Notes under the pieces: model-generated
Told to the model about the DNA's origin: nothing
The model's database searches: none
What the model saw: only the letters and a program-made list of their open reading frames with translations
Made by a program: the position numbers and the translations under genes
NCBI GenBank assembly: GCA_020161265.1
Contig: JAIUOC010000003.1
Span: 363,024-427,023 of the forward strand
Reading direction: 5' to 3'
DNA: 64,000 nucleotides
Source of the DNA: Chloroflexota bacterium
GTDB lineage: Bacteria; Chloroflexota; Chloroflexia; Chloroflexales; Herpetosiphonaceae
In this document: one piece after another, positions 12,061 to 47,088 of the stretch
Layout of the letters: each line of letters starts with the position of its first letter
Position numbering within the stretch: the stretch's first letter is position 1

Positions 12061-12507
12061 CTATACCACATCGACAACCCAAGTAATCCCAAAACGATCG
12101 GTAAGCATGCCAAACAGCTGCGCCCAAGGCGTTTGGGTAATTGGCTCGATGATTGTTGCCTGCTCAGCCAGTTTCGCCCACAACTCCATAACCTCGTTAA
12201 CCTGTTGCCCACGGAGCGAGATAAAGAATGATGCTTGGGTCAGCGTTAGCCCATGGGCGCGGGAAGTCACGGTTTGTAGTGCTGGTAGTTGCTCTGTGGT
12301 TGGAATATCGTAGGCCATCAGACGGAAACCGCTGGCCGTCGTTACTTGCCCCCACATAATCATATCGGCGATTGGCGTATCTTTTGGTGCACCAACATCA
12401 GCGTAAGTTGTAAGCACAAGTTCCCCTTCGAACACGGCCTGATAAAACTCAAGCGCTTGACGGGCATTACCATGAAAGTTGAGATGAGGGGTTACAGCGA
12501 TTGTCAT
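12061..12507 (-). CDS. PhnB-like VOC (glyoxalase/bleomycin-resistance fold) family protein
   Basis: 148 aa. N-terminus TPHLNFHGNARQALEFYQAVFEG. C-terminus FGMLTDRFGITWVV, typical of COG2764/PhnB. Confidence 0.65.
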   Translation of the reverse strand: MTIAVTPHLNFHGNARQALEFYQAVFEGELVLTTYADVGAPKDTPIADMIMWGQVTTASGFRLMAYDIPTTEQLPALQTVTSRAHGLTLTQASFFISLRGQQVNEVMELWAKLAEQATIIEPITQTPWAQLFGMLTDRFGITWVVDVV

Positions 12508-12638
12508 AATTTGCTCCTTGGTGATTCACGACTGTCACTATTTGCTGTGGCAGTTGTTGATAAATCGGTCTTACTCCGTGAGTATAATGTATAATGCGGT
12601 CAGAATCAGACCTAATTAATTCAAGGAACTCTAAATCG

Positions 12639-13598
12639 ATGTATAGCCCAACAACTCGTTTGTTAACGATCCTCGAACTCTTACAATCGCATCAGCGGAT
12701 GCGCGGTGCTGAGCTTGCCAGTCGCCTCGAAATTAGCCAACGCACAGTGCGCCGCTATGTGGTGATGCTCCAAGATATGGGCATTCCGGTTGAGGCTGAG
12801 CGTGGACCCGATGGTGCTTACTATCTTGGTCGCGGCTACACCATCCCGCCCTTGATGATTAATCCAGCTGAGGCATTGGCACTCGTGCTGGGATTGCGCA
12901 TGATTCAGGCTTTGCAATTTCCAGTTGATGCGACCGCGATTGAGGGTGCAATCGCCAAACTCGAACGGGTTATGCCAACAATTCTGCTTGATCAGGTACG
13001 AGCCTTCCAAGAGGCGATTACGTTTCATGTTGCTCCACCGCTTACCTTTTTGCAGCCAAGCATCGTCGCCAGCTTAAGTGTGGCGGTGCATACGCGCCAG
13101 CAGGTATGGCTGAGCTATCAAACATACAATGGGGATTCATCGGCACGGGTGTTTGATCCCTATGGAATTGTCTATTATCAAGGGTATTGGTACAGCGTTG
13201 GCTATTGTCACCAACGCAATGATCTGCGCACTTTTCGGATTGATCGCATTCAAGAGCTAAAGTTGCTCAATCAGCCATTTGAGCGTCCCCAAGATTTCGA
13301 CGCGTTACACCATATGCACACCACGTTGGCCACCATGGCAGGACCATATGCGGTTGAGGTTGTTTTCGACGCAACGATCGAACAGGTGCGCCATGTGTTG
13401 CCACCCGCAGCCGGAACCTTTGAGCAAAGCGACGTTGGGATTATTTGGCGGCGGGAAACCTACGAATTAACCTCGATTGCTCACCGCTTGTTACAAATTG
13501 ATCTGCCAGCTACTATTCGCCAACCAGCTGAATTAAAGGAGATGATGCATCAGCTGGCAGCAAAGGCACTGCGAATGACGCTTAATCAACATCCATAG
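12639..13598 (+). CDS. HTH-WYL domain transcriptional regulator (YafY-like)
   Basis: N-terminal wHTH (RLLTILELLQSHQRMRGAELASRLEISQRTVRRYVVMLQDMGIPV), central WYL domain (YYQGYWYSVGYCHQRNDLRTFRIDRI) and a C-terminal WCX-like domain. The ORF track starts at 12594; an MYSPTT start at 12639 is more plausible. Confidence 0.75.
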   Translation: MYSPTTRLLTILELLQSHQRMRGAELASRLEISQRTVRRYVVMLQDMGIPVEAERGPDGAYYLGRGYTIPPLMINPAEALALVLGLRMIQALQFPVDATAIEGAIAKLERVMPTILLDQVRAFQEAITFHVAPPLTFLQPSIVASLSVAVHTRQQVWLSYQTYNGDSSARVFDPYGIVYYQGYWYSVGYCHQRNDLRTFRIDRIQELKLLNQPFERPQDFDALHHMHTTLATMAGPYAVEVVFDATIEQVRHVLPPAAGTFEQSDVGIIWRRETYELTSIAHRLLQIDLPATIRQPAELKEMMHQLAAKALRMTLNQHP

Positions 13599-16199: not shown

Positions 16200-16533
16200 A
16201 AGTCGTCTCATACTCCTGCTTGCAGCGAAGTATAGCATATGTTGGAACGATAAGTCAATGATCATAAATGGAAGTGCTAGACCAGATCGTGCTCATTCAA
16301 TTGTGCTAAGCATTGAGACTCAGTAGTTTTAACCTCAAACGCTTGCGAGTAGCTATCAACGAGGGCCAGCTTGCCCATCTTTTTGAGCTATCCAAGGCGA
16401 ATCCCCTCTAGGGGTTGAGTGTCAAGGGTTTTCATCTGACTATCAGTGCCAAATAGCGCATTCTAACGATTGAGATGGCTTGATCGGGGTGCTACAATAG
16501 GATGACAATGCTGCTGCACAAGAGGCTGAATTC

Positions 16534-19119
16534 ATGGTTTGTCCACGCTGTTCAACCGAATTAAAAACTGGGGCACGCTTTTGCCCCAAGTGTGGTGCTG
16601 GTCTACCCCGTTGGACTGGCCGCCTTGCCAATGGCGATGTATTGATTGATCGCTATGTGGTGGTTCGCCCGTTGGCCCGTGGTGGCATGGGCGCGGTTTA
16701 TTTGGCGACCGATCGGCGGCTTGGTGATGCTCCAGTCGCGCTCAAAGAGATGACGGGTTTGCATCAACCAGGCGATACCGATGCTTGGGAACGCGCTGTT
16801 GGCGAGTTTCGGCGCGAGGCTTCGCTCTTGGCGCGGCTAAGTCACCCCAATTTGCCGCGCGTGATCGACCAATTTCGCCATGACGAAAACGAATTTTTGG
16901 TGATGGAATATGTCGAGGGTCAAACGCTCCGCTCCGAAATGGAAGGCCGCACCGAGCCGTTGGCCTTGGAAACGGTGATCGATTGGATGCGCCAATTGAC
17001 CAACGTGCTGCAATATTTACATAATCAAAACCCACCGATTATCTATCGCGATCTCAAGCCGCCGAATATTATGCTGCGCCCCGATGGCCGAATTGCCCTG
17101 ATCGATTTTGGCATCGCTCGCTTGTTCAAACATGGTCAAGAAGGCGATACGGTGATTTATGGCACGCCTGGTTATGCGCCGCCTGAGCAATATGGCTTTG
17201 GTCAAACCGACCATCGCTCGGATATTTATAGTTTGGCGATGGTCATTCACGAATTGTTGACCCGTTTTGAGCCAGCCAAACGTGAAAGTACCCGCCCGCC
17301 GTTGGCGCATAATTTGCGTAATACTGTGCCACCTGCCTTGAGCGAGGTGCTGCACCGTGCAATGCATCCTGATCCTGCTGATCGTTATCAATCAATGCGC
17401 GATTTTCAAATGGCAGTCGATCATTCATTAAATCAAAATCAGGTTGCCGCCTTGCCTGATGCCACAGTGCTGCATCAAGCGACGATTGCCAAGCCCAAAG
17501 CTGCAAATTGGTGGTGGCTGGCGCTGGCCTTGGTTGGTATTGGCTTGATTGGCTTTTTGCTGGCCCGCACCTTTGGCGTATTTGCGCCTGAGGTTCAGCC
17601 AACCAGCGTGGCCCAAATTACGCCTAGCCTAGCTGAGCCAACTCCGATCGAAGCCACGGCTGTGCCGATCGTGATTGGGCCAGCTCCGCCGGGGATGTTG
17701 GCGATTCCTGGTGGCACATTTGTGATTGGTAGCGATGCTGGCTCACCTAACGAGCAGCCAGTTGGTCGCGGCTATCTGCCAACCTTTTATATTGATCGCA
17801 CTGAGGTGACGGTAGCGGCCTATCGCGCCTGTGTCGAGCAACAACGCTGTAGCGAGCCAGCTGATCGTAGTTCGCTGACGGTCGCTGATTATTACGATAA
17901 CGCCCAATATGCTGAATATCCGATGATTAATGTTTCGTGGCAACAAGCCTTGACCTACTGCCAAGCTCAAAATAAACGCTTGCCCAGTGAGGCCGAGTGG
18001 GAGCGGGCGGCGCGGGGCACTGAAGGCCGCATCTATCCATGGGGCGACCAGTGGGATGCCAGTTTGCTGAATGCTTGGGGCGCTGGAGTTGCTGGCGATA
18101 CCCGCGCAGTTGGCAGTTATCCTAATGGTGCTACGCCCGAAGGCGTTTTGGATTTAGCTGGCAATGTTTGGGAATGGACGAGCAGCCTTGATTTGCCCTA
18201 CCCCTACAATGCTGCTGATGGCCGTGAAGTGCCAACCCAACCTGGCTCGCGGATTGTGCGCGGCAGTTTTAGCGGCACGAATCCTGAGAATGCTCGCGCG
18301 GCGGTGCGCGAACGACGCGACCCTGAATTGCCCTTAAATATTATTGGCTTTCGCTGCGTCACCAACGATTTTTATGTGCCCGAAGGCATGGATTTTATTG
18401 CGGGCGGGCGCTGGACGATGGGCGCAACTGCCGAAGATTTGGCGCATTACAAAGAAGTCTATGGATGGCAAGGCTTGCAAAATGAAGAACCAGCAACTCC
18501 AATTTCGACCACGGCCTTTTATCTTGATCGTACTGAAGTGTCCAACCAAGCCTATGCTGAGTTTATTAATGCGACTGATCGCGCTGTCCCGACCAATTCA
18601 TTTGATCCGGTTGGGCTTTCATTGTGGTTGCCCGATCGCACAGTACCAATCTCGCTGAGCCAACATCCAGTTGTCAATGTAACCTGGGATGATGCCCGCA
18701 GCTATTGCGAATGGCGTGGCAAACGGCTACCGACCGAAGCCGAGTGGGAACGGGCGGCGCGTGGCGATCAGCGCACGATTTTCCCATGGGGCGATCAAGC
18801 TGATGCTAGTTTGCTCAACAACAAGGATTTTGGGCCAGGCCGAACTATGCCCGTTGGCACATTGCCAAACGCTGGCCCCTATGGCACACTAGATCTTGCA
18901 GGCAACGTGTGGGAATGGACACAATCGCTGTATATTCCCTATCCGTATCATCCCAATGATGGGCGCGAGTTGCCGACTGGCGCAGGTTCGCGGGTATTGC
19001 GCGGTGGTTCGTGGTTCGATGATCTGATGTCAGCGCATACCACAGGCCGCAATTCGTTCCGCCCCGACCTTGCCAATATCAATGTTGGTTTTCGGTGTGC
19101 ACAGGATGTTGCACCATAA
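16534..19119 (+). CDS. Ser/Thr protein kinase with N-terminal zinc ribbon, one TM helix and two C-terminal FGE-sulfatase (SUMF1-like) domains
   Basis: CPRC...CPKC zinc ribbon. Kinase motifs: GxGxxG-like LARGGMGAVY, VALKEM, YRDLKPPN, DFGIAR, GTPGYAPPE. TM segment WWWLALALVGIGLIGFLLA. Two FGE domains, each ending RVxRGGSW/F ... (I/N)GFRC. Confidence 0.85.
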   Translation: MVCPRCSTELKTGARFCPKCGAGLPRWTGRLANGDVLIDRYVVVRPLARGGMGAVYLATDRRLGDAPVALKEMTGLHQPGDTDAWERAVGEFRREASLLARLSHPNLPRVIDQFRHDENEFLVMEYVEGQTLRSEMEGRTEPLALETVIDWMRQLTNVLQYLHNQNPPIIYRDLKPPNIMLRPDGRIALIDFGIARLFKHGQEGDTVIYGTPGYAPPEQYGFGQTDHRSDIYSLAMVIHELLTRFEPAKRESTRPPLAHNLRNTVPPALSEVLHRAMHPDPADRYQSMRDFQMAVDHSLNQNQVAALPDATVLHQATIAKPKAANWWWLALALVGIGLIGFLLARTFGVFAPEVQPTSVAQITPSLAEPTPIEATAVPIVIGPAPPGMLAIPGGTFVIGSDAGSPNEQPVGRGYLPTFYIDRTEVTVAAYRACVEQQRCSEPADRSSLTVADYYDNAQYAEYPMINVSWQQALTYCQAQNKRLPSEAEWERAARGTEGRIYPWGDQWDASLLNAWGAGVAGDTRAVGSYPNGATPEGVLDLAGNVWEWTSSLDLPYPYNAADGREVPTQPGSRIVRGSFSGTNPENARAAVRERRDPELPLNIIGFRCVTNDFYVPEGMDFIAGGRWTMGATAEDLAHYKEVYGWQGLQNEEPATPISTTAFYLDRTEVSNQAYAEFINATDRAVPTNSFDPVGLSLWLPDRTVPISLSQHPVVNVTWDDARSYCEWRGKRLPTEAEWERAARGDQRTIFPWGDQADASLLNNKDFGPGRTMPVGTLPNAGPYGTLDLAGNVWEWTQSLYIPYPYHPNDGRELPTGAGSRVLRGGSWFDDLMSAHTTGRNSFRPDLANINVGFRCAQDVAP

Positions 19120-19139: not shown

Positions 19140-21020
19140 ATGAACATTATCAATTTAGAAACTATTTCCAAAGCCTATGGCCCTAAAGTGTTGTTTGAAA
19201 ATATTTCTTTAGGCTTAGCAAGCGGCGATCGAATTGGCTTAATCGGGGTCAATGGCAGTGGTAAATCGACCTTATTAAAAATTGCTGCTGGTTTAGAACA
19301 ACCAGATACTGGCCGCGTAACCTTGCGCAAAGATTGCCGAATTGGCTATTTGGCTCAAGATCCGCCGATGGATGCCAACCAAACGGTGTTGGAATATGTG
19401 TATGCGGCGGCGGGCGAAGGTGCAACCTTGCTTAGCCAATATACGCTTGCCAGTGTGCAGCTTGAGCAAGACCCTAACGATACCAAAGCGCTGGCTGCCG
19501 TAGCCGAGTTGAGCGAACGTTTGACCACGCTTGATGCTTGGGATACCGAGTTGAGCGCTCGAACGGTGCTTTCGCGGCTTGGCATTACCACGCTTGATGC
19601 CCAACTTGGCACGCTCTCTGGCGGCCAACGCAAGCGTGTGGCGATGGCGCGGGTGCTGATCGAAAAGCCCGATTTGCTGATTCTCGATGAGCCAACCAAC
19701 CATATCGACCCAACTACCGTGGCTTGGCTGGAAGGTTATTTAGCCAATTTGCAAGGCGCGTTGCTGCTGATCACCCACGATCGCTACTTTTTGGATCGGG
19801 TGGTGACGGCGATTGTTGAGCTTGAAGATCATCAATTATTTTCGTATCCAGGCAATTACGAGCGCTTTGTGGTCGAACGAATTGAGCGCGAACGCCAACG
19901 CGCCAAGGCCGAGCTTGACCATCGCAACGAGGTGCGCCGCGAATTGGCTTGGTTGCGTCAAGGTGCGCAAGCTCGAACCACCAAACAACAAGCCCGCGTC
20001 GATCGCGCTAATGCCTTGATCAACCAAGAGCGCCGCCAAGAGCGTGGAACCTTGGAGCTTGAATCGACAGGCCGACGGATTGGCAAAAAGCTGATCGAAA
20101 TGCATGGCGTGAATAAGCAAATTGCTGGCAAAACCTTGCTGAGCAATTTTGAATATCAGCTTACTCGCGACGATCGGCTGGGAATTATCGGCCCAAACGG
20201 GGTTGGCAAATCGACCTTGCTCAATTTGATCGCAGGCCGTTTGCAGCCTGATAGTGGCGAATTGGTGGTGGGCGAAACCATCCATGTGGCCTATTACGAT
20301 CAAAGTAGCAGCGATCTTAACCCCAACCAACGCTTGATCGATTATGTCAGTGATGGTGCTGAGTTGGTGCAAACAGGCGAGGGTTTACGCACCGCCAGCC
20401 AAATGCTTGAGCGCTTTTTGTTCCCGAATAATCAGCATTGGGATTATATCCACAGCTTGTCGGGGGGCGAACGCCGCCGCCTTTATTTATTACGAACCCT
20501 GATGCGCAATCCCAATGTGTTGCTGCTCGACGAACCCAGCAACGATCTTGATGTGCAGACGATTGCAATTTTGGAAGAATACATTGAGCAATTTAATGGC
20601 GCAGTGATTATCGTCTCGCACGATCGGGCTTTTCTCGATAACACGGTTGATCATTTGCTGATTTTCGAGGGCGATGGCAAGGTGCGCCACTTCCCAGGCG
20701 ATTACTCGGCCTATCGTGAAGTCTACGAACGCGAGCAATCAGCACTCAAGGCTGTAACCAAACCGTCAACTCAAGAGCGGCCACGCGAGCAAAAACCGCG
20801 TAAACTGAGCTTCAAAGAGCAACGCGAATTGAGCGAACTCGAAAAAACCATCGCCAACTTAGAAGCCCGCCAAAACGAATTGAATGCAGCATTGAATAAC
20901 GCAGGCAGCGATTATCAAGCCTATACCCGTTTGCACACCGAACTTGAGCAGGTCAGCCAAAGCTTAGAACAAAGCTACGAACGCTGGATGGAACTTTCTG
21001 AGCTAGCGTCGGCTTCGTAA
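19140..21020 (+). CDS. ABC-F family ATPase (tandem ABC domains, no permease), Uup/EttA-like
   Basis: Two Walker A sites (GVNGSGKST, GPNGVGKST), two signatures (LSGGQRKR, LSGGERRR), C-terminal coiled coil. Confidence 0.9.
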   Translation: MNIINLETISKAYGPKVLFENISLGLASGDRIGLIGVNGSGKSTLLKIAAGLEQPDTGRVTLRKDCRIGYLAQDPPMDANQTVLEYVYAAAGEGATLLSQYTLASVQLEQDPNDTKALAAVAELSERLTTLDAWDTELSARTVLSRLGITTLDAQLGTLSGGQRKRVAMARVLIEKPDLLILDEPTNHIDPTTVAWLEGYLANLQGALLLITHDRYFLDRVVTAIVELEDHQLFSYPGNYERFVVERIERERQRAKAELDHRNEVRRELAWLRQGAQARTTKQQARVDRANALINQERRQERGTLELESTGRRIGKKLIEMHGVNKQIAGKTLLSNFEYQLTRDDRLGIIGPNGVGKSTLLNLIAGRLQPDSGELVVGETIHVAYYDQSSSDLNPNQRLIDYVSDGAELVQTGEGLRTASQMLERFLFPNNQHWDYIHSLSGGERRRLYLLRTLMRNPNVLLLDEPSNDLDVQTIAILEEYIEQFNGAVIIVSHDRAFLDNTVDHLLIFEGDGKVRHFPGDYSAYREVYEREQSALKAVTKPSTQERPREQKPRKLSFKEQRELSELEKTIANLEARQNELNAALNNAGSDYQAYTRLHTELEQVSQSLEQSYERWMELSELASAS

Positions 21021-21043: not shown

Positions 21044-22639
21044 ATGCAAGCAACACCCGAACTAATTTTGATTGTGGATGATCAAACCACCAATGTGATG
21101 GTGTTACAGCGGATGTTGGAACGCGCTGGTTATGCTACTGCCTGTGCTCGCAGCGGCTTCGAAGCCTTGACCATGCTCGAACAGCAAGTCCCCGATTTGA
21201 TTTTACTTGACGTAATGATGCCGGAAATGGATGGCTACCAGACGTTGCAGGCAATTCGTGAGCGCAACCATCTGCCATTTATTCCAATTATCTTTGTTTC
21301 GGCCAAGCAAACCACCGCCGATACGGTAACTGGGTTGGATTTGGGCGCTGATGATTACGTTACCAAGCCCGTCAATCGTGATGAATTGCTGGCTCGTATG
21401 CGCGTGCTGTTGCGCTTGAAACATACGCGCCGTGCGCTCCATCGGGAACAAGAACGTTTGCGCTTTCTCTATCGGGTTTCGCAAACCTTGCATCGCTCGT
21501 TGGATATTGATCAAGTGTTGCCCGAAGCCTTGAATGCGATCAACGAGCTGTTGGGAGCCAGCCGTGGTAGCGTGTTGCTGCTCGATGATCAAAATCGGGT
21601 TTGGCGGCGGATTCTGTTTCGACCACATTTGCCGCCTGCCGAGGCTGAACAAGCGATTCAGGCGGTGCTACGTGAAGGCTTGGCCTCGTATGCCTTGCGC
21701 ACTGGCGAAGTCCAAATCGTCGAAGATGCCCAAAACGATCCCCGTTGGAAGCATTTTTATGATGATCGTGAGGAAATTGGCTCGGCGCTGGCCTTGCCAT
21801 TACATAATTATGCCCAAAATACGATCATCGGCGTATTTATCTTGGTGCATCCCCAACGTAATTTCTTCCGCACCGAGCTAGAAACCCTGATCAAAGCATT
21901 GACTGATCAATTAAGCGTGGCCTTGACCAATGCGGCGGTCTACACCCGTTTGCGCGAAGCTGAAGATAGCCGCGATGGCTTTATTCAAATGCTGACCCAC
22001 GACTTACGCGCACCGTTGGCAGGCATGGTTGGCTGCTTCGATGCCTTGATGACCACCCAGCTTGATGATGATGGCAAATTGTTTGTCGAGCTTGGCTTTC
22101 GAGCCGGAGCTGCCCAACAACGCCTGATCGACGATTTGCTCGATGTGTATAAGGCTGAGGCTGGGCGTTTGGTGCTTAGCCAGGAAACCACCAGCTTGCA
22201 GCGTTTGGGTGAATTGCTGAGTGAGCAAGTTTTGGGAATTACGGTTGAACAACAACTAAGCTTTGAGCTTGATCTGCCAGCCGAGCCATTGGTGGTGCTT
22301 GATGAGCATAAAATGGTGCGCGTATTGGCCAATTTGGTCAGCAATGGCATCAAATGGACGCGGCCAGGTGGTACAATTCGCGTGGTTGGCACGGTTGATC
22401 AAGCGCAGCAACTGATTACCCTAAACGTCAGCGATACGGGGCAGGGGATTGCTGCCGAAGATATTCCGCATATTTTCGATAAATTTTATCAAGGTCGTAC
22501 TACCGCCCAATCGCGGGGTACTGGGCTGGGCTTGACCTTTTGCAATTTAGCGGTTGGTGCTCATGGCGGCACAATTAGCGTGGATAGCCAAGTAGGCAAG
22601 GGGACGACGGTCACCGTGCAGCTACCTTGGAAGGAGTAA
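21044..22639 (+). CDS. hybrid signalling protein: receiver + GAF + histidine kinase (HisKA/HATPase_c)
   Basis: N-terminal REC (LIVDDQ...LILLDVMMPEMDG...AKQ), GAF-like middle region, H-box MLTHDLRAPL, G-boxes SDTGQGI and GTGLGLT. Confidence 0.85.
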   Translation: MQATPELILIVDDQTTNVMVLQRMLERAGYATACARSGFEALTMLEQQVPDLILLDVMMPEMDGYQTLQAIRERNHLPFIPIIFVSAKQTTADTVTGLDLGADDYVTKPVNRDELLARMRVLLRLKHTRRALHREQERLRFLYRVSQTLHRSLDIDQVLPEALNAINELLGASRGSVLLLDDQNRVWRRILFRPHLPPAEAEQAIQAVLREGLASYALRTGEVQIVEDAQNDPRWKHFYDDREEIGSALALPLHNYAQNTIIGVFILVHPQRNFFRTELETLIKALTDQLSVALTNAAVYTRLREAEDSRDGFIQMLTHDLRAPLAGMVGCFDALMTTQLDDDGKLFVELGFRAGAAQQRLIDDLLDVYKAEAGRLVLSQETTSLQRLGELLSEQVLGITVEQQLSFELDLPAEPLVVLDEHKMVRVLANLVSNGIKWTRPGGTIRVVGTVDQAQQLITLNVSDTGQGIAAEDIPHIFDKFYQGRTTAQSRGTGLGLTFCNLAVGAHGGTISVDSQVGKGTTVTVQLPWKE

Positions 22640-22645
22640 CACCCG

Positions 22646-23356
22646 ATGCCAGCACGATGGCGTATTCTTGTAGTTGATGATGACACGATTATTCGCCGCA
22701 CGCTCGTGAGCAATTTGCTTAACGATGGGTTTGAAGTAATGGCGGCAGAATCAGGCCAATCGGCCTTGACCATGGTCGAAAGTTCATGGCCTGATCTGGC
22801 GATTCTCGATTTGATGATGCCTGGCATGACTGGTTTTGAACTATCCGACCGTTTGCGGCGCTATGTGGAAATTCCAGTGATTATGCTGACCTCGATTTCC
22901 GATGAGGCTACAACTGTACGCGGCCTTGAGCAGCATGCCGATGATTATATGACCAAGCCCTACCGCTACCCTGAATTGCGTGCACGGGTCAATAAACTGC
23001 TGACCAAATCGTATGAAGGTGGCTTGCATCCAGGCGAGTTGGTGGTAATTGACGAAGATCTCTCAGTTAATTTTGGTCAGCATATTCTGTTGCGCAAAGG
23101 TGAGGCAATTCCGTTGGAGCCGATTGAGCTACGGGTCTTGTACTTACTGTTGCAAACACCAACTGTGGCGGTGGCAACCACAACCCTGTTGCGCAAGGCT
23201 TGGGGCTTGGGCGAAGAGGGTGATCAATCCTCGTTGTGGGTGCGAATTCGCTCGTTGCGCACCAAACTTGAGGACAATCCATCAAAGCCAATCTACTTAA
23301 AGACTGTGCGTGGCGTGGGCTATGTGTTCGACGTGCAACCACGGCGCGGCTTGTAA
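22646..23356 (+). CDS. OmpR/PhoB-family response regulator (REC + winged helix)
   Basis: ILVVDDD...LAILDLMMPGMTG. C-terminal trans_reg_C (YLKTVRGVGYVFD). Confidence 0.85.
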   Translation: MPARWRILVVDDDTIIRRTLVSNLLNDGFEVMAAESGQSALTMVESSWPDLAILDLMMPGMTGFELSDRLRRYVEIPVIMLTSISDEATTVRGLEQHADDYMTKPYRYPELRARVNKLLTKSYEGGLHPGELVVIDEDLSVNFGQHILLRKGEAIPLEPIELRVLYLLLQTPTVAVATTTLLRKAWGLGEEGDQSSLWVRIRSLRTKLEDNPSKPIYLKTVRGVGYVFDVQPRRGL

Positions 23357-23423
23357 TCTTACTCGTAAACTTACATTCTTATAGTGGTGGTGATGGTTGC
23401 CCAAATGATCCATCGCTATAAGG

Positions 23424-23756
23424 ATGTTAAGTATGCTAAAGACTGTTTTGCTGGTTGATCCCGACTGGATCACCCGAACGCTCATGAGATATCACCTTCG
23501 CCGGGCAGGCTATACAGTCTACGAAGCCGATTCCTGCACTCTCGCGGCTCAACTGAACGAGCAATATCAGCCAGAATTTATCATCCTTGATGAAGCGATT
23601 TCAACCGAGCACAGCAATGCGCTCAATTGCCGCGATCATCAGAACTATATTTTGCTGACCGATCTGCCGCAACCCCGAACCACTGGCCGTTTGAGCTTAG
23701 CCAAGCCAATTACTGGCCATAATTTAATTAGCCAATTACAAGCCTATCGGGCATAG
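23424..23756 (+). CDS. single-domain receiver (CheY-like) protein, slightly atypical (D-P-D in place of the acidic pair)
   Basis: LLVDPD, phospho-acceptor position IILDE, LLTD, AKP. All the canonical receiver positions can be aligned. Confidence 0.5.
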   Translation: MLSMLKTVLLVDPDWITRTLMRYHLRRAGYTVYEADSCTLAAQLNEQYQPEFIILDEAISTEHSNALNCRDHQNYILLTDLPQPRTTGRLSLAKPITGHNLISQLQAYRA

Positions 23757-23759
23757 GCG

Positions 23760-23997
23760 CTAGGGGTCGGCTATCCGGCGCATAGTTTTGAGCCACGAAG
23801 AACACGCAAATTGTTTTTTGATCCACGAAGAGCACGAAGCACACGAAGGTTAGATTTTTTGCTGTGAATTGCCCGAAACATGTTCCGATAGCCCAAAGCC
23901 TATCGCCATTCAGATCTCTGCGCCTCTGCGTTGAATAGTGTGATCCTCAATTTTTGATGGTTGCTTTCATCCCTCATCCCTCATCCTTCATCCTTAC
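23760..23997. repeat. mosaic intergenic repeat R2 (CACGAAG modules, CTATAGC/CGATAGC module, CTCTGCG module, TCATCCC heptamer array)
   Basis: gagccacgaagaacacg...gatccacgaagagcacgaagcacacgaagg; ccgatagcccaaagcctatcgccat; tctctgcgcctctgcgtt; catccctcatccctcatccttcatcctta. Confidence 0.6.
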
Positions 23998-24138
23998 AAA
24001 TTACTTGCTTTAGTACGCTTGACAGTTGGGCTACCTTGCGACTATGCTAAGCTACGATTTGCTGCTTTAGAACGCGCCATTTGTGATGATTCAATGCTTG
24101 GTTGCTGCTCAATTGAGCCATACAACCATTATTGAATC

Positions 24139-24585
24139 ATGCGGGAGCCTATTGTGAGCCAAGTTGAGGATCAATTGGCGCAATTTGTGGTTTTTATCCT
24201 CGATCAAGAACGGTTTGCTTTGCCAGTTGAGCAGGCGCGTGGCATCGAACGTTGGCGTAATCCAACTCGCATTCCAGGCACTGCAACCGCGATTATGGGG
24301 ATTATCAATCAGCGCGGGGTGCTGCTGACGGTGGTTGATATGCGGGTGGTTTTAGGCATGAAGCCAATTACCCCGACTCGGCGTAGTCGTTTTTTGCTCG
24401 TTCACGAACAGATCGATTGTGCAATCGCGGTTGATCAGGTGATCGATATGTTGACCTTGGATGTGGGTTTGGCTGAGCCAACTCCCCATCGTGGAACGGT
24501 CGCTAGCCGAGGTTTGCTGCCAACGCCGTTTGGGTTTGCAACCTGGCTTGATCTTAATGCCCTACTTGGGTCGATCAATGGTTAA
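24139..24585 (+). CDS. cheW: CheW-like coupling protein 1
   Basis: 148 aa single CheW domain (FVVFILDQERFALPVEQARGIER...GIINQRGVLLTVVDMRVVLG). Confidence 0.8.
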   Translation: MREPIVSQVEDQLAQFVVFILDQERFALPVEQARGIERWRNPTRIPGTATAIMGIINQRGVLLTVVDMRVVLGMKPITPTRRSRFLLVHEQIDCAIAVDQVIDMLTLDVGLAEPTPHRGTVASRGLLPTPFGFATWLDLNALLGSING

Positions 24586-24997
24586 CCCAGTCATTGTCAG
24601 CGATCTTTATCCAGTTAATGTTGGCGATCAAACGATCTTGATTCGCCAAACCGCCTTGGTTGGTGTGGATTATGTTGCCAATAGCGGGCAACCAATTAGT
24701 AGCGTGGTTCAGCAATCTAATCCAATCGATGTCATTGACTTAAATCAGTGGCTCCAGCAGCCAATTGGCCAACAAGCCAATCGCTTAGCCTTATTTGTGG
24801 TTGGGCAAACAGCTATGGGCGTGGTAGTCGATCAATTGGGCGACCCGATTAGCACAGCCTTGAGCCTGCAACCACTGCCAAGCCTAGTTTCCGATAGCTT
24901 GCTCGACCCCAGCATTTTGGGCATTATTATGCTCGATGAACGCCCATGCCTCATGCTTGATCTTGAACTGTTTGTGCTGGTACACGCCAAGCGCTAG
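24578..24997 (+). CDS. CheW-like coupling protein 2 (divergent)
   Basis: About 139 aa. Its ATG at 24578 overlaps the cheW-1 stop (ATGGTTAA). Hydrophobic CheW-like core (LALFVVGQTAMGVVVDQLGDPIS...ILGIIMLDERPCLMLDLELF). The ORF-track start at 24461 is an upstream in-frame extension. Confidence 0.6.
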   Translation: MVNPVIVSDLYPVNVGDQTILIRQTALVGVDYVANSGQPISSVVQQSNPIDVIDLNQWLQQPIGQQANRLALFVVGQTAMGVVVDQLGDPISTALSLQPLPSLVSDSLLDPSILGIIMLDERPCLMLDLELFVLVHAKR

Positions 24998-25019
24998 ACC
25001 AGTGCCAAGGAGTCTGCTC

Positions 25020-26519
25020 ATGGCGAATTTAGGTTCGCTTTTCTCGCTCGATTTTACGAATTTGACTGATCGCCGCCGCGTGATTATGCGGATTGTTGCC
25101 TTGGCTGCCTTGGTTGTGCCTTTTTTAGTGGTCTTGGTGGCGTGGATTTACGAGCGCAATAATCCACAATTGTGGGATGCCCTTGGGGTTTTGTTTGTCT
25201 CGATGGGCGCGGTTTGGTTGATTGCCTTGTTCAGCTTGCGCATGATTAATCAAGGCCAAGATCAAATTGTTACCTATGTTTTAATTGGCACAATTTCGTT
25301 GTCAGCCTTGGCTTGTGCCGTGCGCTATGGCGGCATCGATCAAAGCCTGATTGTCTCGCTGTTGCTGGTGATGCTGTTTATTGTCGGTTTGGTCGCAACA
25401 TGGCGCGAAATTGTCTCGTATGGCGTTGCGATTACCTTAGCGTATGGTCTGTTATTACTGCTCAAGGGCAACCTTGAATCATTTCGAGTGACAACCCTGA
25501 CCGCTGCCAATAACGCCGGGGTCTATGGCGTTGGGGCGGTGCTGTTTTTTGTTGGCTTGGCTACCACGATTGTCCTGACCACGATTTTTAGCCGTGCTTT
25601 GGCTGAATATTCGCAAAAAAGTGAGCAATGGACAGCCGATTTGATGCGGGCCAATGAGCAGTTGATCGAGAAAAATATTCAGCAGATCGAGCTTGGCACT
25701 GATCTTTCGTTTGCCGCTACCGAATTATCGGCAGCCTCGCAACAACAAGCTTCGGGGGCAACTGAGCAAGCCTCGGCTGTGGCAGAAGTTTCATCAACCA
25801 TCGAAGAATTGGGCTTTACAGCGCGACAAATCGCTAGTGCCTCGGATCAAGTCAGTATTGCCGCTCAACAAACCTTGACCTCGTTGGCCATGGGCCAGCA
25901 ATCGGTTGATGAAGCGATTCAAGGTATGGAGCGGATCAAGCAGCGGGTACAAGAGGTTTCTTCGCGAGTTTTGAGCTTGGGCGAACGTTCGCATCATATT
26001 AGCGAAATTATTGCCTTGATCGATGATGTTTCCGATGAAACCCACCTGCTGGCCTTGAATGCGGCGATTGAAGCGGCTGGAGCTGGCGAACATGGCCGCC
26101 GATTTGCCGTAGTTGCCGCCGAAGTCAAGAGCTTGGCCAATCGTACTTTGGCGGCTTCGCGCGAAGTTAAAGATGTGATTGCCGAAATTCAGGCTGCGAC
26201 CAACGCCTCAGTGCTGGCCACCGAAGAGAGCGTCAAAGAAGTCGAACAAGGGGTCAGCTTGGCTCATCGTGCTGGCCAAGAGATGGATTCAATTGTGGTT
26301 TTGGGCGAACATACTGCCCAATTAGCCCAAGAAATTAGCCTAGCAACCGCTCAACAACAAACTGCATCGGAGCAAGTTGTTGAAACCATGCGTGAAATTG
26401 CCGAAGTCTCACGTCAAACGGCGGCTGGTTCGCGCCAAACTGCCGACGCTGCATCCAAACTCACCGCGATTGCAAATCGCTTGCATTCGTTGGTCAACAT
26501 TGATGCCAATACACGCTAA
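25020..26519 (+). CDS. methyl-accepting chemotaxis protein with a multi-TM (about 6 helices) N-terminal module and no periplasmic or HAMP domain
   Basis: Start MANLGSLFSL. About 200 aa of consecutive hydrophobic helices, then the MCP signalling domain (LLALNAAIEAAGAGEHGRRFAVVAAEVKSLANRT). Confidence 0.85.
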   Translation: MANLGSLFSLDFTNLTDRRRVIMRIVALAALVVPFLVVLVAWIYERNNPQLWDALGVLFVSMGAVWLIALFSLRMINQGQDQIVTYVLIGTISLSALACAVRYGGIDQSLIVSLLLVMLFIVGLVATWREIVSYGVAITLAYGLLLLLKGNLESFRVTTLTAANNAGVYGVGAVLFFVGLATTIVLTTIFSRALAEYSQKSEQWTADLMRANEQLIEKNIQQIELGTDLSFAATELSAASQQQASGATEQASAVAEVSSTIEELGFTARQIASASDQVSIAAQQTLTSLAMGQQSVDEAIQGMERIKQRVQEVSSRVLSLGERSHHISEIIALIDDVSDETHLLALNAAIEAAGAGEHGRRFAVVAAEVKSLANRTLAASREVKDVIAEIQAATNASVLATEESVKEVEQGVSLAHRAGQEMDSIVVLGEHTAQLAQEISLATAQQQTASEQVVETMREIAEVSRQTAAGSRQTADAASKLTAIANRLHSLVNIDANTR

Positions 26520-26534
26520 GCGAGGAGCTATCGC

Positions 26535-28844
26535 ATGGGCGGTTTTGATTTATCAGCATTTTTTGGCCAGTTTCGCGAAGAAACTGAAGAGAATGTGCGG
26601 GCCTTGACCACAGGCTTATTGGCCTTGGAGTCAAACCCAGGCGATCGCGAAGCGATTGATACGATTTTTCGGGCGGCACATACGATCAAAGGCTCGGCGC
26701 GCATGCTGGGTCAAGTCGATATGGGTCGTTTGGCACATACCATGGAAAGTTTGCTTTCGGCCTTGCGCAGTGGCATGCTAGCCATGAATTCGAGCATTAA
26801 CGATGTGCTGCTGGCCAGTGTTGATGTGCTGCTAGTGCTGAATTCCCAAGTCAACGAGCCGCCGCCAACCGATCCCAACGTTGATCGTTTGGTGGAGCAA
26901 CTGAATGCCTTGGCGGCTGGTGAAAGCTTGCCGACTGCGCCAATAGCGCCTAAAGCTGCGCCAATTGTCGCGCCAGTGGCCGAACCAGAACCTGAGCCAG
27001 CGCCAGTTGTGCTTGAGCAACCCAAGCCCGAACCAGTGGTTGCTAAGCCAGCCGTGCCTGCCAAACCCAAAAAATCAGCCTCAGCCGAAGCCCCCAAGCC
27101 AGTGATTAGCACTCGTTCGACCGTGCGTGTGCCAATTTCGCGCTTAGATCGGTTGTTGAATACCGCTGGTGAGTTGGTGGTGACCCGTCAATTGCACCTT
27201 GAGCATGTCGCCGATCTTGAGGCTTTGGATAAATTGCTGACCAAAAGTGAGCGCCTGAGCCAACAATTGAGCGAGCGCTTGACGGGCCAACGCGTGACCT
27301 TTCAGCAACGGCGCGAGGCCAGCGAATTAGCCAGCCAACTGCAAAATCTGGCCCAATCGACGCGCAATCAGTTGCGCTTGCTCACCGAGCGTTGGAGCAG
27401 CCATAGCGCTGCTAGCGAGGCCTTGGTCGATGAACTTGAAGCCGAGGTCATGGCGACCCGTTTGCAACCTGTGGCTGGTTTGTTTGCGCCAATTCCTCGG
27501 GCCGTGCGCGAGCTGGCTCGTTCGTTGGGCAAAGAAGTTAACTTAATCACCGAAGGCGAAACCACCGAGGCCGACCGCAAAGTGATTGAGTTAATGGCTG
27601 ATCCGTTGGTACATTTGGTGCGCAACGCGCTTGATCATGGCATCGAAAGCCCCGATGAGCGTGTGAAAGCTCACAAGTCTGCCGAAGCAAGCTTGCGTTT
27701 AGAAGCTCGCTCGTTGGGCGGCACAATTGAAATTATTATCAGCGACGATGGCCGTGGAATCGATCCAGCAGTGATTCGGGCAACTGCAATTAAACGGGGA
27801 ATTATCGAGGCTGATGCCGCGACTCGCTTGCGTGATGAAGAAGCTTTGGAGTTAATCTGGCAGCCTGGTTTTTCCACCAGCGCAATCATCACCGATGTTT
27901 CAGGCCGTGGCGTGGGCATGGATGTGGTGCGGGCGGCAGTGACCGAGGTTGGCGGGCGGGTCGATGTGCATTCGGTGCTTGGCCAAGGCACGACCTTCAC
28001 GCTGATTTTGCCAATTACCTTGCTGACCACGCGCGTGTTGTTATTTGATGTGGCTGGCACGACCTATGCCTTGCCCTCGACCGCCTGTTTAGGTGGGCGG
28101 CGGGTTGCTGGCGGGCAAATTCAGACCGTCGAAGGGCGACCAACCGTACGGGTTGATGAGCGCAGCGTGAGCATTGTAGCGCTTGCGCCCTTGCTTGAGC
28201 AGCGCGGCCCCTTGCCACAACCATCGGATATTTCCAATTTGGTGATTTTGGGGCCAGCTAATCGCCCATTGGCCTTGCTTGTCGATAAATTGGTCGATGA
28301 ACGTGAGGTGGTGGTTAAATCGTTGGGCGCGTTGTTGAACGAACAGCGTTTATGCACTGGTGCGATTGCCCTGCCTGATGGGCGTTTGGTGTTAGTGCTC
28401 AATCCCTTGGCGATTGCGGCGCGGGCGCGTGAATGGGGCAAACCAGTCGCTTTGCCAGCGCCAACCAAGCTCCAACCCGCCAAATTATTGGTCGCGGAAG
28501 ATTCATTTACCACCCGCGAACTACTTCGCTCAATGCTGCAATCGGCGGGCTATGTGGTTGAAACGGCGATTAACGGCCAAGATGCGCTTGACAAGCTCAA
28601 TCACAATTCCTACGATCTGCTGGTAAGCGATGTTGAAATGCCGTTGCTAACTGGCTTTGAGCTAACCCGCCGTGTGCGTGCCCATGACCGTTTGCGCCAA
28701 CTGCCAATTATCATTATCACCAGCTTGGCCCGCGATAGCGATCGGCGTGAAGGCTTGTTGGCTGGTGCGCAAGCCTATATCGTCAAAAGCCAGTTTGATC
28801 AAAGCAACTTGCTCGAAACGATTCATCAATTACTTGGTCGCTAA
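26535..28844 (+). CDS. cheA: CheA histidine kinase fused to a C-terminal receiver (CheA-REC hybrid)
   Basis: P1 Hpt (FRAAHTIKGSARMLG), Pro/Ala/Glu-rich linker, HATPase (SDDGRGID, GRGVGMDVV, GQGTTF), P5 CheW-like, C-terminal REC (LLVAEDS...LLVSDVEMP...KS). Confidence 0.9.
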   Translation: MGGFDLSAFFGQFREETEENVRALTTGLLALESNPGDREAIDTIFRAAHTIKGSARMLGQVDMGRLAHTMESLLSALRSGMLAMNSSINDVLLASVDVLLVLNSQVNEPPPTDPNVDRLVEQLNALAAGESLPTAPIAPKAAPIVAPVAEPEPEPAPVVLEQPKPEPVVAKPAVPAKPKKSASAEAPKPVISTRSTVRVPISRLDRLLNTAGELVVTRQLHLEHVADLEALDKLLTKSERLSQQLSERLTGQRVTFQQRREASELASQLQNLAQSTRNQLRLLTERWSSHSAASEALVDELEAEVMATRLQPVAGLFAPIPRAVRELARSLGKEVNLITEGETTEADRKVIELMADPLVHLVRNALDHGIESPDERVKAHKSAEASLRLEARSLGGTIEIIISDDGRGIDPAVIRATAIKRGIIEADAATRLRDEEALELIWQPGFSTSAIITDVSGRGVGMDVVRAAVTEVGGRVDVHSVLGQGTTFTLILPITLLTTRVLLFDVAGTTYALPSTACLGGRRVAGGQIQTVEGRPTVRVDERSVSIVALAPLLEQRGPLPQPSDISNLVILGPANRPLALLVDKLVDEREVVVKSLGALLNEQRLCTGAIALPDGRLVLVLNPLAIAARAREWGKPVALPAPTKLQPAKLLVAEDSFTTRELLRSMLQSAGYVVETAINGQDALDKLNHNSYDLLVSDVEMPLLTGFELTRRVRAHDRLRQLPIIIITSLARDSDRREGLLAGAQAYIVKSQFDQSNLLETIHQLLGR

Positions 28845-28894
28845 AGTAGCGCCGCCCGAATCAAGGCTTATCTGCCCCTGCGAGGAGTTTTTCA

Positions 28895-31793: not shown

Positions 31794-31797
31794 AACT

Positions 31798-32892: not shown

Positions 32893-32902
32893 GGGAACTG
32901 TT

Positions 32903-42487: not shown

Positions 42488-42527
42488 CCCTCCAAAATGC
42501 TTGAATGGTTTACAAGGAGATGTGATT

Positions 42528-47086: not shown

Positions 47087-47088
47087 CC

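What the first reader, a model, noticed from the sequence alone, without database searches (positions are those of the whole stretch)
16534..19119. Ser/Thr kinase carrying two tandem extracytoplasmic FGE-sulfatase domains
An N-terminal C4 zinc ribbon is followed by an apparently active Hanks kinase with YRD in place of HRD. After a single TM helix come two complete FGE/SUMF1-like domains, each ending RVxRGGS(W/F)...GFRC. FGE domains fused to kinases probably act as ligand-binding sensors rather than as formylglycine-generating enzymes. A tandem pair is unusual and could confer avidity or dual specificity.
Basis: partly seen in the sequence, partly recalled or inferred. Interest (0 to 1): 0.5.

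Follow-up and report, generated by a model that had tools for sequence, protein, structure and literature searches.

The report
Receptor kinase with two dead FGE domains
This Herpetosiphon gene encodes a membrane-spanning Ser/Thr kinase whose outside part is two copies of an enzyme fold that has lost its catalytic residues and most likely binds a signal; the design recurs in many bacteria, so it is a well-built but ordinary member of a known, functionally untested class.

Summary
ORF 16534-19119 (+) encodes 861 aa: a C4 zinc ribbon, an intact Hanks kinase, one TM helix, a disordered linker and two complete FGE-sulfatase folds that are 42% identical to each other. Neither FGE copy has the copper-binding Cys pair of true FGE. 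Human C336/C341 correspond to T582/A587 in copy 1 and D829/A834 in copy 2, and no Cys occurs there in any of 43 family members. There is also no DinB/iron domain. The "sensor, not enzyme" reading is therefore supported, though only indirectly.

The claim that a tandem pair is unusual is not supported. Of the top 120 homologues, 54 have two FGE copies and 3 have three. Of the 150 best 50%-identity representatives, 146 have two or more copies (up to 11), and 28 of those also carry a kinase. YRD is equally routine (H 26, Y 20, F 9 in the family).

The protein is 100% identical to an annotated Chloroflexi MAG protein and 90% identical to a syntenic Herpetosiphon geysericola gene, under strong purifying selection. 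No DGR template, sulfatase or conserved neighbourhood was found. One new detail: the zinc ribbon joins the kinase as the rubredoxin knuckle of PknG does. Low novelty.

The parts
16470..16498 (+). Promoter-like site: TTGAGA, 17 nt, TACAAT, with TG before the -10 element
   Evidence: Consensus scan, 10 of 12 matches. This is a consensus match only. The number of sites found in the region was no higher than in shuffled sequence.
16520..16525 (+). Ribosome-binding site AAGAGG, 8 nt upstream of the ATG
   Evidence: Read directly from the sequence.
16534..19119 (+). Complete gene (861 aa plus stop) for a receptor-type Ser/Thr kinase with a tandem FGE-fold ectodomain
   Evidence: ORF list. It is 100% identical to database protein P0001 and 90% identical to a syntenic H. 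geysericola gene. dN/dS is 0.09.
16540..16605 (+). N-terminal C4 zinc ribbon (residues 3-24; C3, C6, C17, C20)
   Evidence: Pfam Zn_Ribbon_1, 31.4 bits against a cutoff of 25. The four Cys are invariant in the 30 of 55 homologues that have the module. The second CxxCG knuckle and the junction to the kinase align to the PknG rubredoxin domain, E 7e-9.
16645..17436 (+). Hanks-type kinase domain (about residues 38-301) with all catalytic residues and YRD in the catalytic loop
   Evidence: Pfam Pkinase, E 3.8e-40. Closest solved relatives are S. aureus PknB/Stk1, E 5e-35, with TM-score 0.82. Catalytic residues are invariant in the family.
17509..17577 (+). Single transmembrane helix (residues 326-348)
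   Evidence: It is the only window with Kyte-Doolittle hydropathy above 1.4. The full-length model has a helix at 327-346.
17578..17682 (+). Pro/Thr/Ala-rich extracytoplasmic linker (residues 349-383)
   Evidence: pLDDT is below 50 for residues 348-376. This is the least conserved segment against H. geysericola: 64% identity, dN/dS 0.30.
17683..18369 (+). FGE-sulfatase fold copy 1 (residues 384-612), catalytically dead, with the GGSW motif degenerated to GSFS
   Evidence: Pfam and local HMM, the structural model and fold matches. The residues at all five positions that matter for FGE catalysis differ from FGE. dN/dS is 0.107.
18370..19116 (+). FGE-sulfatase fold copy 2 (residues 613-861), catalytically dead (C336 replaced by D829, C341 by A834)
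   Evidence: Residue-by-residue alignment to human FGE and SUMF2, family columns and the model. dN/dS is 0.05.

Best explanation
The gene encodes a bitopic receptor Ser/Thr kinase of a Herpetosiphon species (Chloroflexota). The cytoplasmic half is a catalytically competent RD-type Hanks kinase. It is preceded by a C4 zinc ribbon placed as the rubredoxin knuckle of PknG is placed. The extracytoplasmic half follows one TM helix and a flexible linker. It consists of two directly abutting FGE-fold (C-type-lectin-like) modules that keep the structural core of the fold but have lost the copper-binding cysteines and neighbouring catalytic residues. Shown: the architecture, the topology signal, the intact kinase residues, the dead FGE sites, purifying selection on both copies, and recurrence of the design. 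Inferred: the tandem FGE modules act as a non-enzymatic binding sensor for a protein, peptide or envelope-derived ligand. Occupancy would then change kinase dimerisation or orientation across the membrane. That would lead to activation-loop autophosphorylation (candidate site T206, upstream of the conserved GT211) and phosphorylation of unknown cytoplasmic substrates. The zinc ribbon may add a second, intracellular control. This is the same logic as the TagR-PpkA pair of P. aeruginosa, where a separate periplasmic FGE-sulfatase protein promotes activation of a transmembrane Hanks kinase. Here the two functions are fused in one chain.
For: The structure models are confident: ectodomain pLDDT 93 and pTM 0.85, full length pLDDT 87 with low confidence in the juxtamembrane segment and linker. 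The kinase residues K71, E95, R172, D173, K175, N178, DFG, E218, D230 and R284 are invariant in 55 homologues, and the kinase aligns to active PknB/Stk1/StkP. Catalytic FGE residues are absent in both copies and across 43 family members (residue list from PMC4505483). The best sequence match among solved structures is SUMF2/pFGE, E 1.3e-26, which a 2005 survey describes as the non-functional counterpart of human FGE (PMC1262709). There is no DinB domain, and all enzyme equivalogs score below cutoff. Core-fold positions are invariant in both copies: the equivalents of human E130 (E424, E668), and the GNxWEW and RLPxEAEWE motifs. dN/dS is 0.05-0.11 on both FGE copies and 0.03-0.045 on the loop that replaces the active site. 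Precedents for non-enzymatic FGE-fold binders: TagR (PA0071) is an FGE-sulfatase-domain periplasmic protein acting upstream of PpkA; Tsi3 immunity proteins lack the catalytic Cys; FGE-sulfatase domains serve as sensors in STAND receptors; and kinase-CLec fusions are known in cyanobacteria.
Against: No ligand, binding assay, phosphorylation assay or substrate is available. The sensor role rests on loss of known catalytic residues plus topology. FGE-fold proteins without the Cys pair can still be enzymes or putative enzymes (PvdO, CalU17, ToxD). CalU17 is the best structural match, E 2e-23. Gene neighbourhoods of orthologues are not conserved, so context gives no clue to pathway or substrate. 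Outside-facing topology is inferred from a single TM helix and from analogy with other receptor kinases; it was not measured. The PknG-like reading of the zinc ribbon rests on a 98-residue alignment that also includes the kinase N-lobe, and the ribbon has only moderate model confidence, pLDDT 66-78.
Confidence: 0.62

Rival explanations
1. The ectodomain is a real enzyme of the wider FGE/EgtB/PvdO superfamily with chemistry that does not need the Cys pair, for example an oxidoreductase acting on a secreted or envelope substrate. On this reading the protein is truly bifunctional, as the database names 'nonheme iron enzyme' and 'bifunctional kinase/FGE family protein' imply.
For: Source annotations use these names. 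The best structural match is CalU17, and PvdO and ToxD also match; all of these lack the FGE Cys pair. NCBIfam gives partial hits to SenA, EgtB and PvdO models. D829 (30 of 43 members) and R839 (42 of 43) are conserved in the loop of copy 2.
Against: All the NCBIfam hits are far below their curated cutoffs: 187 against 420, 170 against 360 and 82 against 500. There is no DinB_2 domain or His triad for iron. Apart from the few conserved positions noted above, the loop that forms the active site in FGE varies widely across the family (no majority residue at most positions), which fits binding surfaces better than a fixed catalytic site. Copy 1 has even lost GGSW in this lineage. No biosynthetic or sulfatase genes lie among the neighbours here or next to orthologues.
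Confidence: 0.12
2. The FGE-fold copies are variable ligand-binding domains of a diversity-generating retroelement (DGR). On this reading the kinase is a remote DGR target whose C-terminal loops are hypermutated, as in cyanobacterial kinase-CLec proteins.
For: DGR variable proteins use the same fold, and TvpA (2y3c) is among the sequence hits, E 3.5e-11. Kinase-CLec fusions are the commonest DGR targets in cyanobacteria. The loop between RGGSW and GFRC is the most variable part of the family alignment.
Against: No template-repeat-like copy of either domain's 3' end exists anywhere in the 64 kb window. No RT-like gene lies among the flanking genes. The candidate loops are 96% identical to H. 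geysericola with dN/dS 0.03-0.045, while synonymous divergence is 0.4-0.6. That is the opposite of hypervariation.
Confidence: 0.03
3. The protein is an anti-phage or conflict kinase, like PD-T4-6 or the mad6 type, that senses invader proteins through its FGE-fold domains.
For: PADLOC models PD-T4-6 and mad6 match at E 1e-58 to 1e-62. FGE-sulfatase sensors occur in defence STANDs and conflict systems. A WYL regulator gene lies 3 kb upstream and is an indel relative to H. geysericola.
Against: The PADLOC matches cover only the generic kinase domain, residues 34-314. The sensor domains lie outside the membrane, whereas the known FGE-sulfatase defence sensors are cytoplasmic. The neighbours are housekeeping or regulatory genes (TetR, ABC-F, two-component system, chemotaxis cluster). 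The locus is syntenic between species.
Confidence: 0.05

Closest known systems
Bacterial Ser/Thr kinases with a C-terminal FGE-sulfatase (DUF323/NirV-like) domain. Sources name them 'bifunctional serine/threonine-protein kinase/formylglycine-generating enzyme family protein'. Chlamydial examples were noted in 2005 (PMC1262709).
   Same: An N-terminal Hanks kinase followed by an FGE-sulfatase fold. Thousands of homologues exist: 7,436 with E<=1e-10 among 8,000 scored. The same name is given to several hits.
   Different: This protein has two FGE copies plus an N-terminal zinc ribbon. Many relatives have one copy (63 of the top 120), and only 30 of 55 aligned homologues carry the ribbon. No paper found here's literature searches reports a ligand or function for any member.
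Human SUMF2/pFGE (PDB 1y4j), the inactive paralogue of FGE
   Same: It is the best sequence match among solved structures, E 1.3e-26. It has the same fold. A 2005 survey describes it as the non-functional counterpart of human FGE (PMC1262709).
   Different: pFGE is a soluble single-domain ER protein of animals. Here the domain is duplicated and tethered to a bacterial membrane kinase.
TagR-PpkA threonine phosphorylation pathway of the P. aeruginosa H1-T6SS
   Same: A periplasmic FGE-sulfatase-domain protein (TagR, PA0071) acts upstream of a transmembrane Hanks kinase and promotes its activation. The PpkA kinase domain is among the structural matches (5hnv).
   Different: TagR and PpkA are separate proteins embedded in a T6SS locus with TagQ, TagS, TagT and Fha. 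Here the FGE fold is fused to the kinase, the organism is a Chloroflexota member, and no T6SS or FHA genes are adjacent.
DGR-diversified kinase-CLec proteins of cyanobacteria and Thiomargarita (PMC7517822; bioRxiv 10.1101/2022.02.16.480423)
   Same: A kinase N-terminal to an FGE-sulfatase/CLec fold that is thought to bind ligands.
   Different: No template repeat or RT was found, and there is no hypervariation. This protein has a TM helix, so its FGE folds face outward.
M. tuberculosis PknG (PDB 2pzi, 4y0x, 7q52)
   Same: A Cys4 metal-binding module lies immediately N-terminal to the kinase. The second CxxCG knuckle and its spacing to the kinase N-lobe align, E 7e-9. Structural alignments to PknG are about 30 columns longer than to kinase-only structures.
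   Different: PknG is soluble, has a C-terminal TPR domain and lacks the RD arginine (the last point is from my own knowledge). This protein is a membrane receptor with YRD. The role of its ribbon is untested.
PASTA-domain receptor kinases (PknB/Stk1/StkP)
   Same: They have the closest kinase domains, E 5e-35, and the same overall layout: kinase, TM helix, then repeated extracellular binding modules.
   Different: The extracellular modules here are FGE folds, not PASTA. The NF033483 score is 202 against a cutoff of 450.

Membership tests
Hanks-type (eukaryotic-like) Ser/Thr protein kinases, Pfam PF00069 | Match to the Pkinase profile above the gathering threshold | tested here: met
   138.4 bits against a cutoff of 31.7, E 3.8e-40.
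Hanks-type (eukaryotic-like) Ser/Thr protein kinases, Pfam PF00069 | Catalytic residues: VAIK Lys, alpha-C Glu, (H/Y)RD Asp, catalytic-loop Asn, DFG, APE Glu | tested here: met
   K71, E95, Y171-R172-D173, N178, D191-F-G and E218 are present. All except position 171 are invariant in 55 homologues.
Hanks-type (eukaryotic-like) Ser/Thr protein kinases, Pfam PF00069 | Demonstrated phosphotransfer | not testable with these tools
   Requires an in vitro autophosphorylation assay.
Aerobic formylglycine-generating enzyme (FGE/SUMF1) | FGE-sulfatase fold | tested here: met
   PF03781, E 3.4e-99, two copies. Foldseek matches to human, S. coelicolor and T. curvata FGE have E about 1e-20 and TM-score (target-normalised) 0.61-0.71.
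Aerobic formylglycine-generating enzyme (FGE/SUMF1) | The two copper-binding catalytic cysteines (human C336 and C341) | tested here: not met
   Copy 2 has D829 and A834 by direct alignment to 2aft. Copy 1 has T582 and A587. No Cys occurs in these columns in 43 family members.
Aerobic formylglycine-generating enzyme (FGE/SUMF1) | Other activity-determining residues S333, H337 and Y340 (PMC4505483) | tested here: not met
   Copy 1 has F579, N583 and N586. Copy 2 has S826 (kept), D830 and S833.
Aerobic formylglycine-generating enzyme (FGE/SUMF1) | Formylglycine-generating activity on CxPxR substrates | not testable with these tools
   Requires a biochemical assay. No sulfatase gene lies among the ten flanking genes.
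EgtB/OvoA/SenA sulfoxide or selenoxide synthases | N-terminal DinB_2 domain with an iron-binding His triad, and a score above the equivalog cutoff | tested here: not met
   There is no DinB hit. SenA scores 187 against 420, EgtB 170 against 360 and OvoA 63 against 400.
DGR variable (target) proteins with CLec/FGE fold | A cognate template repeat matching the 3' variable region, and an RT nearby | tested here: not met
   No repeat of either domain's 3' end exists in the 64 kb window. No RT lies among the neighbours. A template elsewhere in the genome could not be searched.
DGR variable (target) proteins with CLec/FGE fold | Hypervariation of the C-terminal loop between close relatives | tested here: not met
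   The loops are 96% identical to H. geysericola, with dN/dS 0.03-0.045.
PASTA kinases (PknB/Stk1 family, NF033483) | Extracellular PASTA repeats and a score above the equivalog cutoff | tested here: not met
   The score is 202 against a cutoff of 450, and only the kinase part matches. No PASTA domain is found by Pfam.
PknG-type kinases | A rubredoxin-like Cys4 module directly N-terminal to the kinase | tested here: inconclusive
   The second CxxCG knuckle and the junction align, E 7e-9, and structural alignments are longer. However, the first knuckle is not aligned, and ribbon pLDDT is only 66-78.
PknG-type kinases | Soluble protein with a C-terminal TPR domain | tested here: not met
   The protein has a TM helix and an FGE ectodomain instead.
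PD-T4-6 / mad6 defence kinases (PADLOC) | A match beyond the generic kinase domain, and a defence-island context | tested here: not met
   The matches cover residues 34-314 only. The neighbours are TetR, ABC-F, a two-component system and chemotaxis genes.

The most novel reading that the evidence does not exclude
The two abutting dead-FGE modules form a rigid intramolecular pseudo-dimer. The high pTM and the absence of a linker suggest this. The pseudo-dimer would create a composite groove for a specific extracellular peptide or envelope or prey-derived ligand. The PknG-like zinc ribbon would add a cytoplasmic (for example redox) input. The protein would then be a two-input receptor kinase of a predatory filamentous Chloroflexota bacterium, and a tractable model for the unknown function of the very large kinase-FGE class.
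Probability: 0.12. Interest if true: 0.45.

Novelty: new member of a known kind. Interest (0 to 1): 0.2.

Why it matters
FGE-sulfatase folds attached to kinases, caspases and STAND NTPases are among the most expanded yet functionally uncharacterised signalling modules in multicellular and social bacteria. A clean, single-copy, non-DGR example that is strongly conserved between two Herpetosiphon species would be a reasonable candidate for ligand discovery. Its closest relative comes from a strain with a culture-collection number (H. geysericola DSM 7119). The analysis also shows that the source names 'nonheme iron enzyme' and 'bifunctional ... formylglycine-generating enzyme' over-state what the sequence supports. 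As a finding it is not surprising: the architecture, the loss of the catalytic cysteines and the tandem arrangement are all common.

Tried and rejected
1. DGR target. I searched the whole window for direct repeats and ran blastn with word size 7 on each domain's 3' end. Only the internal copy-1/copy-2 similarity appeared (72-75% over the conserved motifs). Loop conservation against H. geysericola also argues against a DGR.

2. Conserved gene neighbourhood as a clue to function. Orthologues P0002, P0019 and P0016 sit in unrelated contexts. Only the very close H. geysericola locus is syntenic.

3. True FGE or EgtB-type enzyme. Rejected on catalytic residues and curated cutoffs.

4. Defence-kinase membership. 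The PADLOC hits are generic to the kinase domain.

5. Position-specific orthology of copy 1 and copy 2 across the family. It holds among close relatives: the nearest neighbour is in the same position 92 times against 16. It does not hold against distant two-copy kinases, where the query's copy 1 is 37.6% identical to distant copy 1s and 38.1% to distant copy 2s. Intra-protein identity ranges from 35% to 73%. The duplication therefore seems to have arisen or been homogenised repeatedly.

6. An unbiased frequency of tandem against single FGE kinases could not be obtained. Both hit lists are ranked by score against a two-copy query and so favour multi-copy proteins.

7. The afdb50 fold library was unavailable. 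The original TagR paper (PMC3402362) is not held.
Full report
**1. The observation**

An AAGAGG ribosome-binding site lies 8 nt upstream. A TG-extended sigma-70-like site lies at 16470-16498, though this is only a consensus match.

Pfam finds a zinc ribbon at residues 3-24, a protein kinase domain at 41-272 (E 3.8e-40) and two stretches of FGE-sulfatase (combined E 3.4e-99). The only hydrophobic segment is residues 326-348. The protein has ten cysteines. Four are in the ribbon (3, 6, 17, 20), four in FGE copy 1 (433, 439, 476, 608) and two in copy 2 (725, 855).

A local HMM places the two FGE copies at 384-612 and 613-861 with no linker between them. They align end to end at 42% identity, E 5e-57. 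The DNA-level repeats D7 and D18 are this internal duplication.

One detail in the finding is slightly off. Only copy 2 ends RVLRGGSW...GFRC. Copy 1 reads RIVRGSFSG...GFRC. Most relatives keep RGG(S/A)W in copy 1, so the motif has decayed in this lineage.

**2. Structure**

I predicted the ectodomain (residues 379-861) using an alignment of 42 two-copy homologues. The model has mean pLDDT 93 and pTM 0.85. For two domains, that pTM implies a defined mutual orientation.

Foldseek against the PDB gives these matches:

| Match | E-value |
|---|---|
| CalU17 | 2e-23 |
| T. curvata, human and S. coelicolor FGE | about 1e-20 |
| ToxD, pFGE/SUMF2, EgtB, OvsA, PorK, PvdO | weaker |

The full-length model has pLDDT 87. 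It shows a confident kinase and a TM helix at 327-346. It has low-confidence segments at 304-325 and 348-376 (the juxtamembrane region and the linker), and a moderately confident ribbon.

**3. The kinase**

The closest solved relatives are S. aureus PknB/Stk1 and S. pneumoniae StkP, E 5e-35, with TM-score 0.82. K71, E95, R172, D173, K175, N178, D191-F-G, E218, D230 and R284 are invariant across 55 aligned homologues.

The residue before RD is H in 26 homologues, Y in 20 and F in 9. YRD is therefore a routine variant. From my own knowledge, PKA itself has YRD. The kinase is of the RD type. T206 lies five residues upstream of the conserved G-T211, and 29 of 55 homologues have Thr there. I infer that it is a candidate activation-loop phosphosite.

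**4. The zinc ribbon**

An unexpected detail concerns the ribbon. The segment FCPKCGAGLPRWTGRLANGDVLIDRYVV aligns, with one single-residue gap, to [27 protein letters not shown] of M. tuberculosis PknG, E 7e-9. In PknG that segment is the second CxxCG knuckle of the rubredoxin-like domain and its junction to the kinase. Structural alignments to PknG are about 30 columns longer than those to kinase-only structures.

When the ribbon is present (30 of 55 homologues), its four Cys are invariant. Whether it regulates the kinase, as the PknG module does, is untested.

**5. Are the FGE copies enzymes?**

Human FGE needs C336 and C341. Mutations of S333, H337 and Y340 also change its activity (PMC4505483). 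I numbered the HMMER alignment to the C336S structure 2aft using chain offset 85, which places E300, S336, C341, C346 and C365 correctly. The mapping is as follows:

| Human FGE | Copy 1 | Copy 2 |
|---|---|---|
| S333 | F579 | S826 |
| C336 | T582 | D829 |
| H337 | N583 | D830 |
| Y340 | N586 | S833 |
| C341 | A587 | A834 |

Across 43 two-copy family members, no sequence has Cys in either loop.

There is no DinB_2/iron domain either. NCBIfam equivalogs all score far below cutoff: SenA 187 against 420, EgtB 170 against 360, PvdO 82 against 500 and GldK 151 against 350.

The best sequence match among solved structures is SUMF2/pFGE, E 1.3e-26. A 2005 survey describes it as the non-functional counterpart of human FGE (PMC1262709).

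The fold's core is retained. The equivalents of human E130 (E424 and E668), the GNxWEW motif and RLP(S/T)EAEWE are invariant in both copies. From memory, E130 and the N293/E300 positions are the structural Ca2+ sites of FGE. I could not confirm the ligand list from a paper held here.

The loop between RGGSW and GFRC replaces the active site. It is the most variable part of the family alignment, which is what one expects of a specificity-determining binding surface.

**6. Origin and selection**

The protein is 100% identical to a database entry from a Chloroflexi MAG that the source names "SUMF1/EgtB/PvdO family nonheme iron enzyme". The best species-representative genome is Herpetosiphon geysericola DSM 7119, with 90% amino-acid identity over the full length. 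The locus is syntenic at about 88% nucleotide identity over more than 14 kb, apart from a 1.5 kb indel that carries a WYL regulator gene.

Nei-Gojobori estimates against that orthologue are as follows:

| Region | dN/dS |
|---|---|
| Kinase | 0.065 |
| FGE copy 1 | 0.107 |
| FGE copy 2 | 0.050 |
| C-terminal loops | 0.03-0.045 |
| Linker and juxtamembrane | 0.30 |

Both FGE copies are functional and constrained. Neither is a decaying duplicate.

**7. Is it a DGR target?**

FGE-sulfatase/CLec folds fused to kinases are classic DGR targets, so I tested this. No template-like copy of either domain's 3' end exists in the 64 kb window. No RT lies among the neighbours. The relevant loops are 96% identical between species despite dS of 0.4-0.6. 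I reject this reading. The caveat is that a template repeat elsewhere in the genome could not be searched.

**8. Context**

The upstream genes are a divergent TetR regulator, an SDR, an ADH and a WYL regulator. Twenty nucleotides downstream lies an ABC-F ATPase. It is followed by a hybrid RR-GAF-histidine kinase, an OmpR-type regulator and a chemosensory cluster. No other kinase or FGE gene is in the window.

Orthologues at 43-60% identity sit in unrelated neighbourhoods. Context therefore gives no functional link. No sulfatase, FHA-domain or PP2C gene is adjacent. The nearest SpoIIE/PP2C-type gene is 12.7 kb away, inside the chemosensory cluster.

**9. Is the tandem arrangement unusual?**

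It is not. The evidence is:

- Of the 120 best homologues (90%-identity clusters), 54 have two FGE copies, 3 have three and 63 have one.
- An exhaustive HMMER search with the ectodomain against 1.84 billion 50%-identity representatives found 166,962 relatives at E<=1e-3 and 9,355 at E<=1e-30.
- Of the best 150 of those, 146 have two or more copies (up to 11), and 28 of these also carry a kinase domain.
- Full-length matches occur in genomes labelled Chloroflexota, Myxococcales/Myxococcota, Polyangiaceae, Deltaproteobacteria, Spirochaetaceae, Kiritimatiellae, Lentisphaeraceae and Acidobacteriota.

Both hit lists are ranked by score against a two-copy query. They show recurrence, not frequency.

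Copy 1 and copy 2 cluster by position among close relatives. They do not do so against distant two-copy kinases. Intra-protein identity ranges from 35% to 73%. The duplication seems to have arisen or been homogenised repeatedly, which again marks it as a common evolutionary move.

**10. Mechanism (inferred)**

The most economical model is a PknB-like receptor kinase. An extracellular binding module controls dimerisation or orientation, and hence activation-loop autophosphorylation, of an RD kinase. This general scheme is summarised in PMC13147305.

The closest functional precedent is P. aeruginosa TagR. It is a periplasmic FGE-sulfatase-domain protein (PA0071) that acts upstream of the transmembrane Hanks kinase PpkA. 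Here sensor and kinase are one polypeptide.

Other FGE folds without the Cys pair act as protein binders or sensors. Examples are the Tsi3 immunity proteins, STAND sensors and DGR variable proteins. The ligand, the substrates, and whether the two copies give avidity or two specificities all remain unknown.

The main rival is an unknown enzymatic activity of the PvdO/CalU17 kind. I put it at about 0.12.

**11. Verdict**

The description is accurate, and "sensor rather than FGE" is the best-supported reading. The feature singled out as special, the tandem pair, is common, and so is YRD. The protein is already in public databases under a generic and somewhat misleading name. It is a new, uncharacterised member of a known and very large architecture class. 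The only modestly new point is the PknG-like placement of the zinc ribbon.

Noticed in passing
window 16540-16650 (residues 3-39): The N-terminal zinc ribbon and its junction to the kinase align to the second CxxCG knuckle of the rubredoxin-like regulatory domain of M. tuberculosis PknG, E 7e-9. This suggests that a PknG-type metal module is reused on a membrane receptor kinase.
   Followed up: partly
window 12075-13597: A WYL/HTH regulator gene (12594-13598) lies in a roughly 1.5 kb segment that has no counterpart in the otherwise syntenic H. geysericola locus. It is a strain-specific insertion or deletion.
   Followed up: partly
window 19140-21020: An ABC-F family ATPase (two ABC domains plus ABC_tran_CTD) starts 20 nt after the kinase stop codon and may be co-transcribed. 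The pairing is kept in H. geysericola but not in more distant orthologues.
   Followed up: partly
window 21044-34459: A signalling-dense stretch: a hybrid RR-GAF-histidine kinase, an OmpR-type regulator, an MCP, CheA-CheW-RR, CheB, CheR-TPR, a SpoIIE/PP2C-type phosphatase and a large TPR protein. Together they form a chemosensory-like cluster with a phosphatase output.
   Followed up: no
window 42501-49883: A LodA-like L-lysine epsilon-oxidase gene (42501-44465) is followed by three tandem paralogous FAD-binding monooxygenase-like genes (45698-47086, 47089-48450, 48525-49883) that are 62-77% identical at the DNA level. This may be an expanded LodB-type maturation set.
   Followed up: no
window 35287-35616: At least eight head-to-tail copies of a 30-nt unit (a decapeptide repeat) lie in the N-terminal part of a 507-aa Kelch-repeat protein (ORF 35100-36623).
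   Followed up: no
window 23877-23997, 34959-35066, 53242-53274, 58817-58935; also 7000-7141, 38675-38897, 39470-39543: There are two families of dispersed short repeats. One contains CATCC(C/T)T heptamer runs next to an 'AGCC.A.AGCC' motif. The other has 'CTTCGCGATCTTCG...CTTCGTGGTTTCAAC' units (D4, D6, D10, D13, D15, D16). They are REP- or MITE-like elements of unknown role.
   Followed up: no
database name of P0001 (identical to window 16534-19116): The source annotation 'SUMF1/EgtB/PvdO family nonheme iron enzyme' ignores the kinase, which makes up the N-terminal third of the protein. It also implies a metal-dependent activity for which the sequence shows neither the Cys pair nor an iron-binding domain.
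   Followed up: yes
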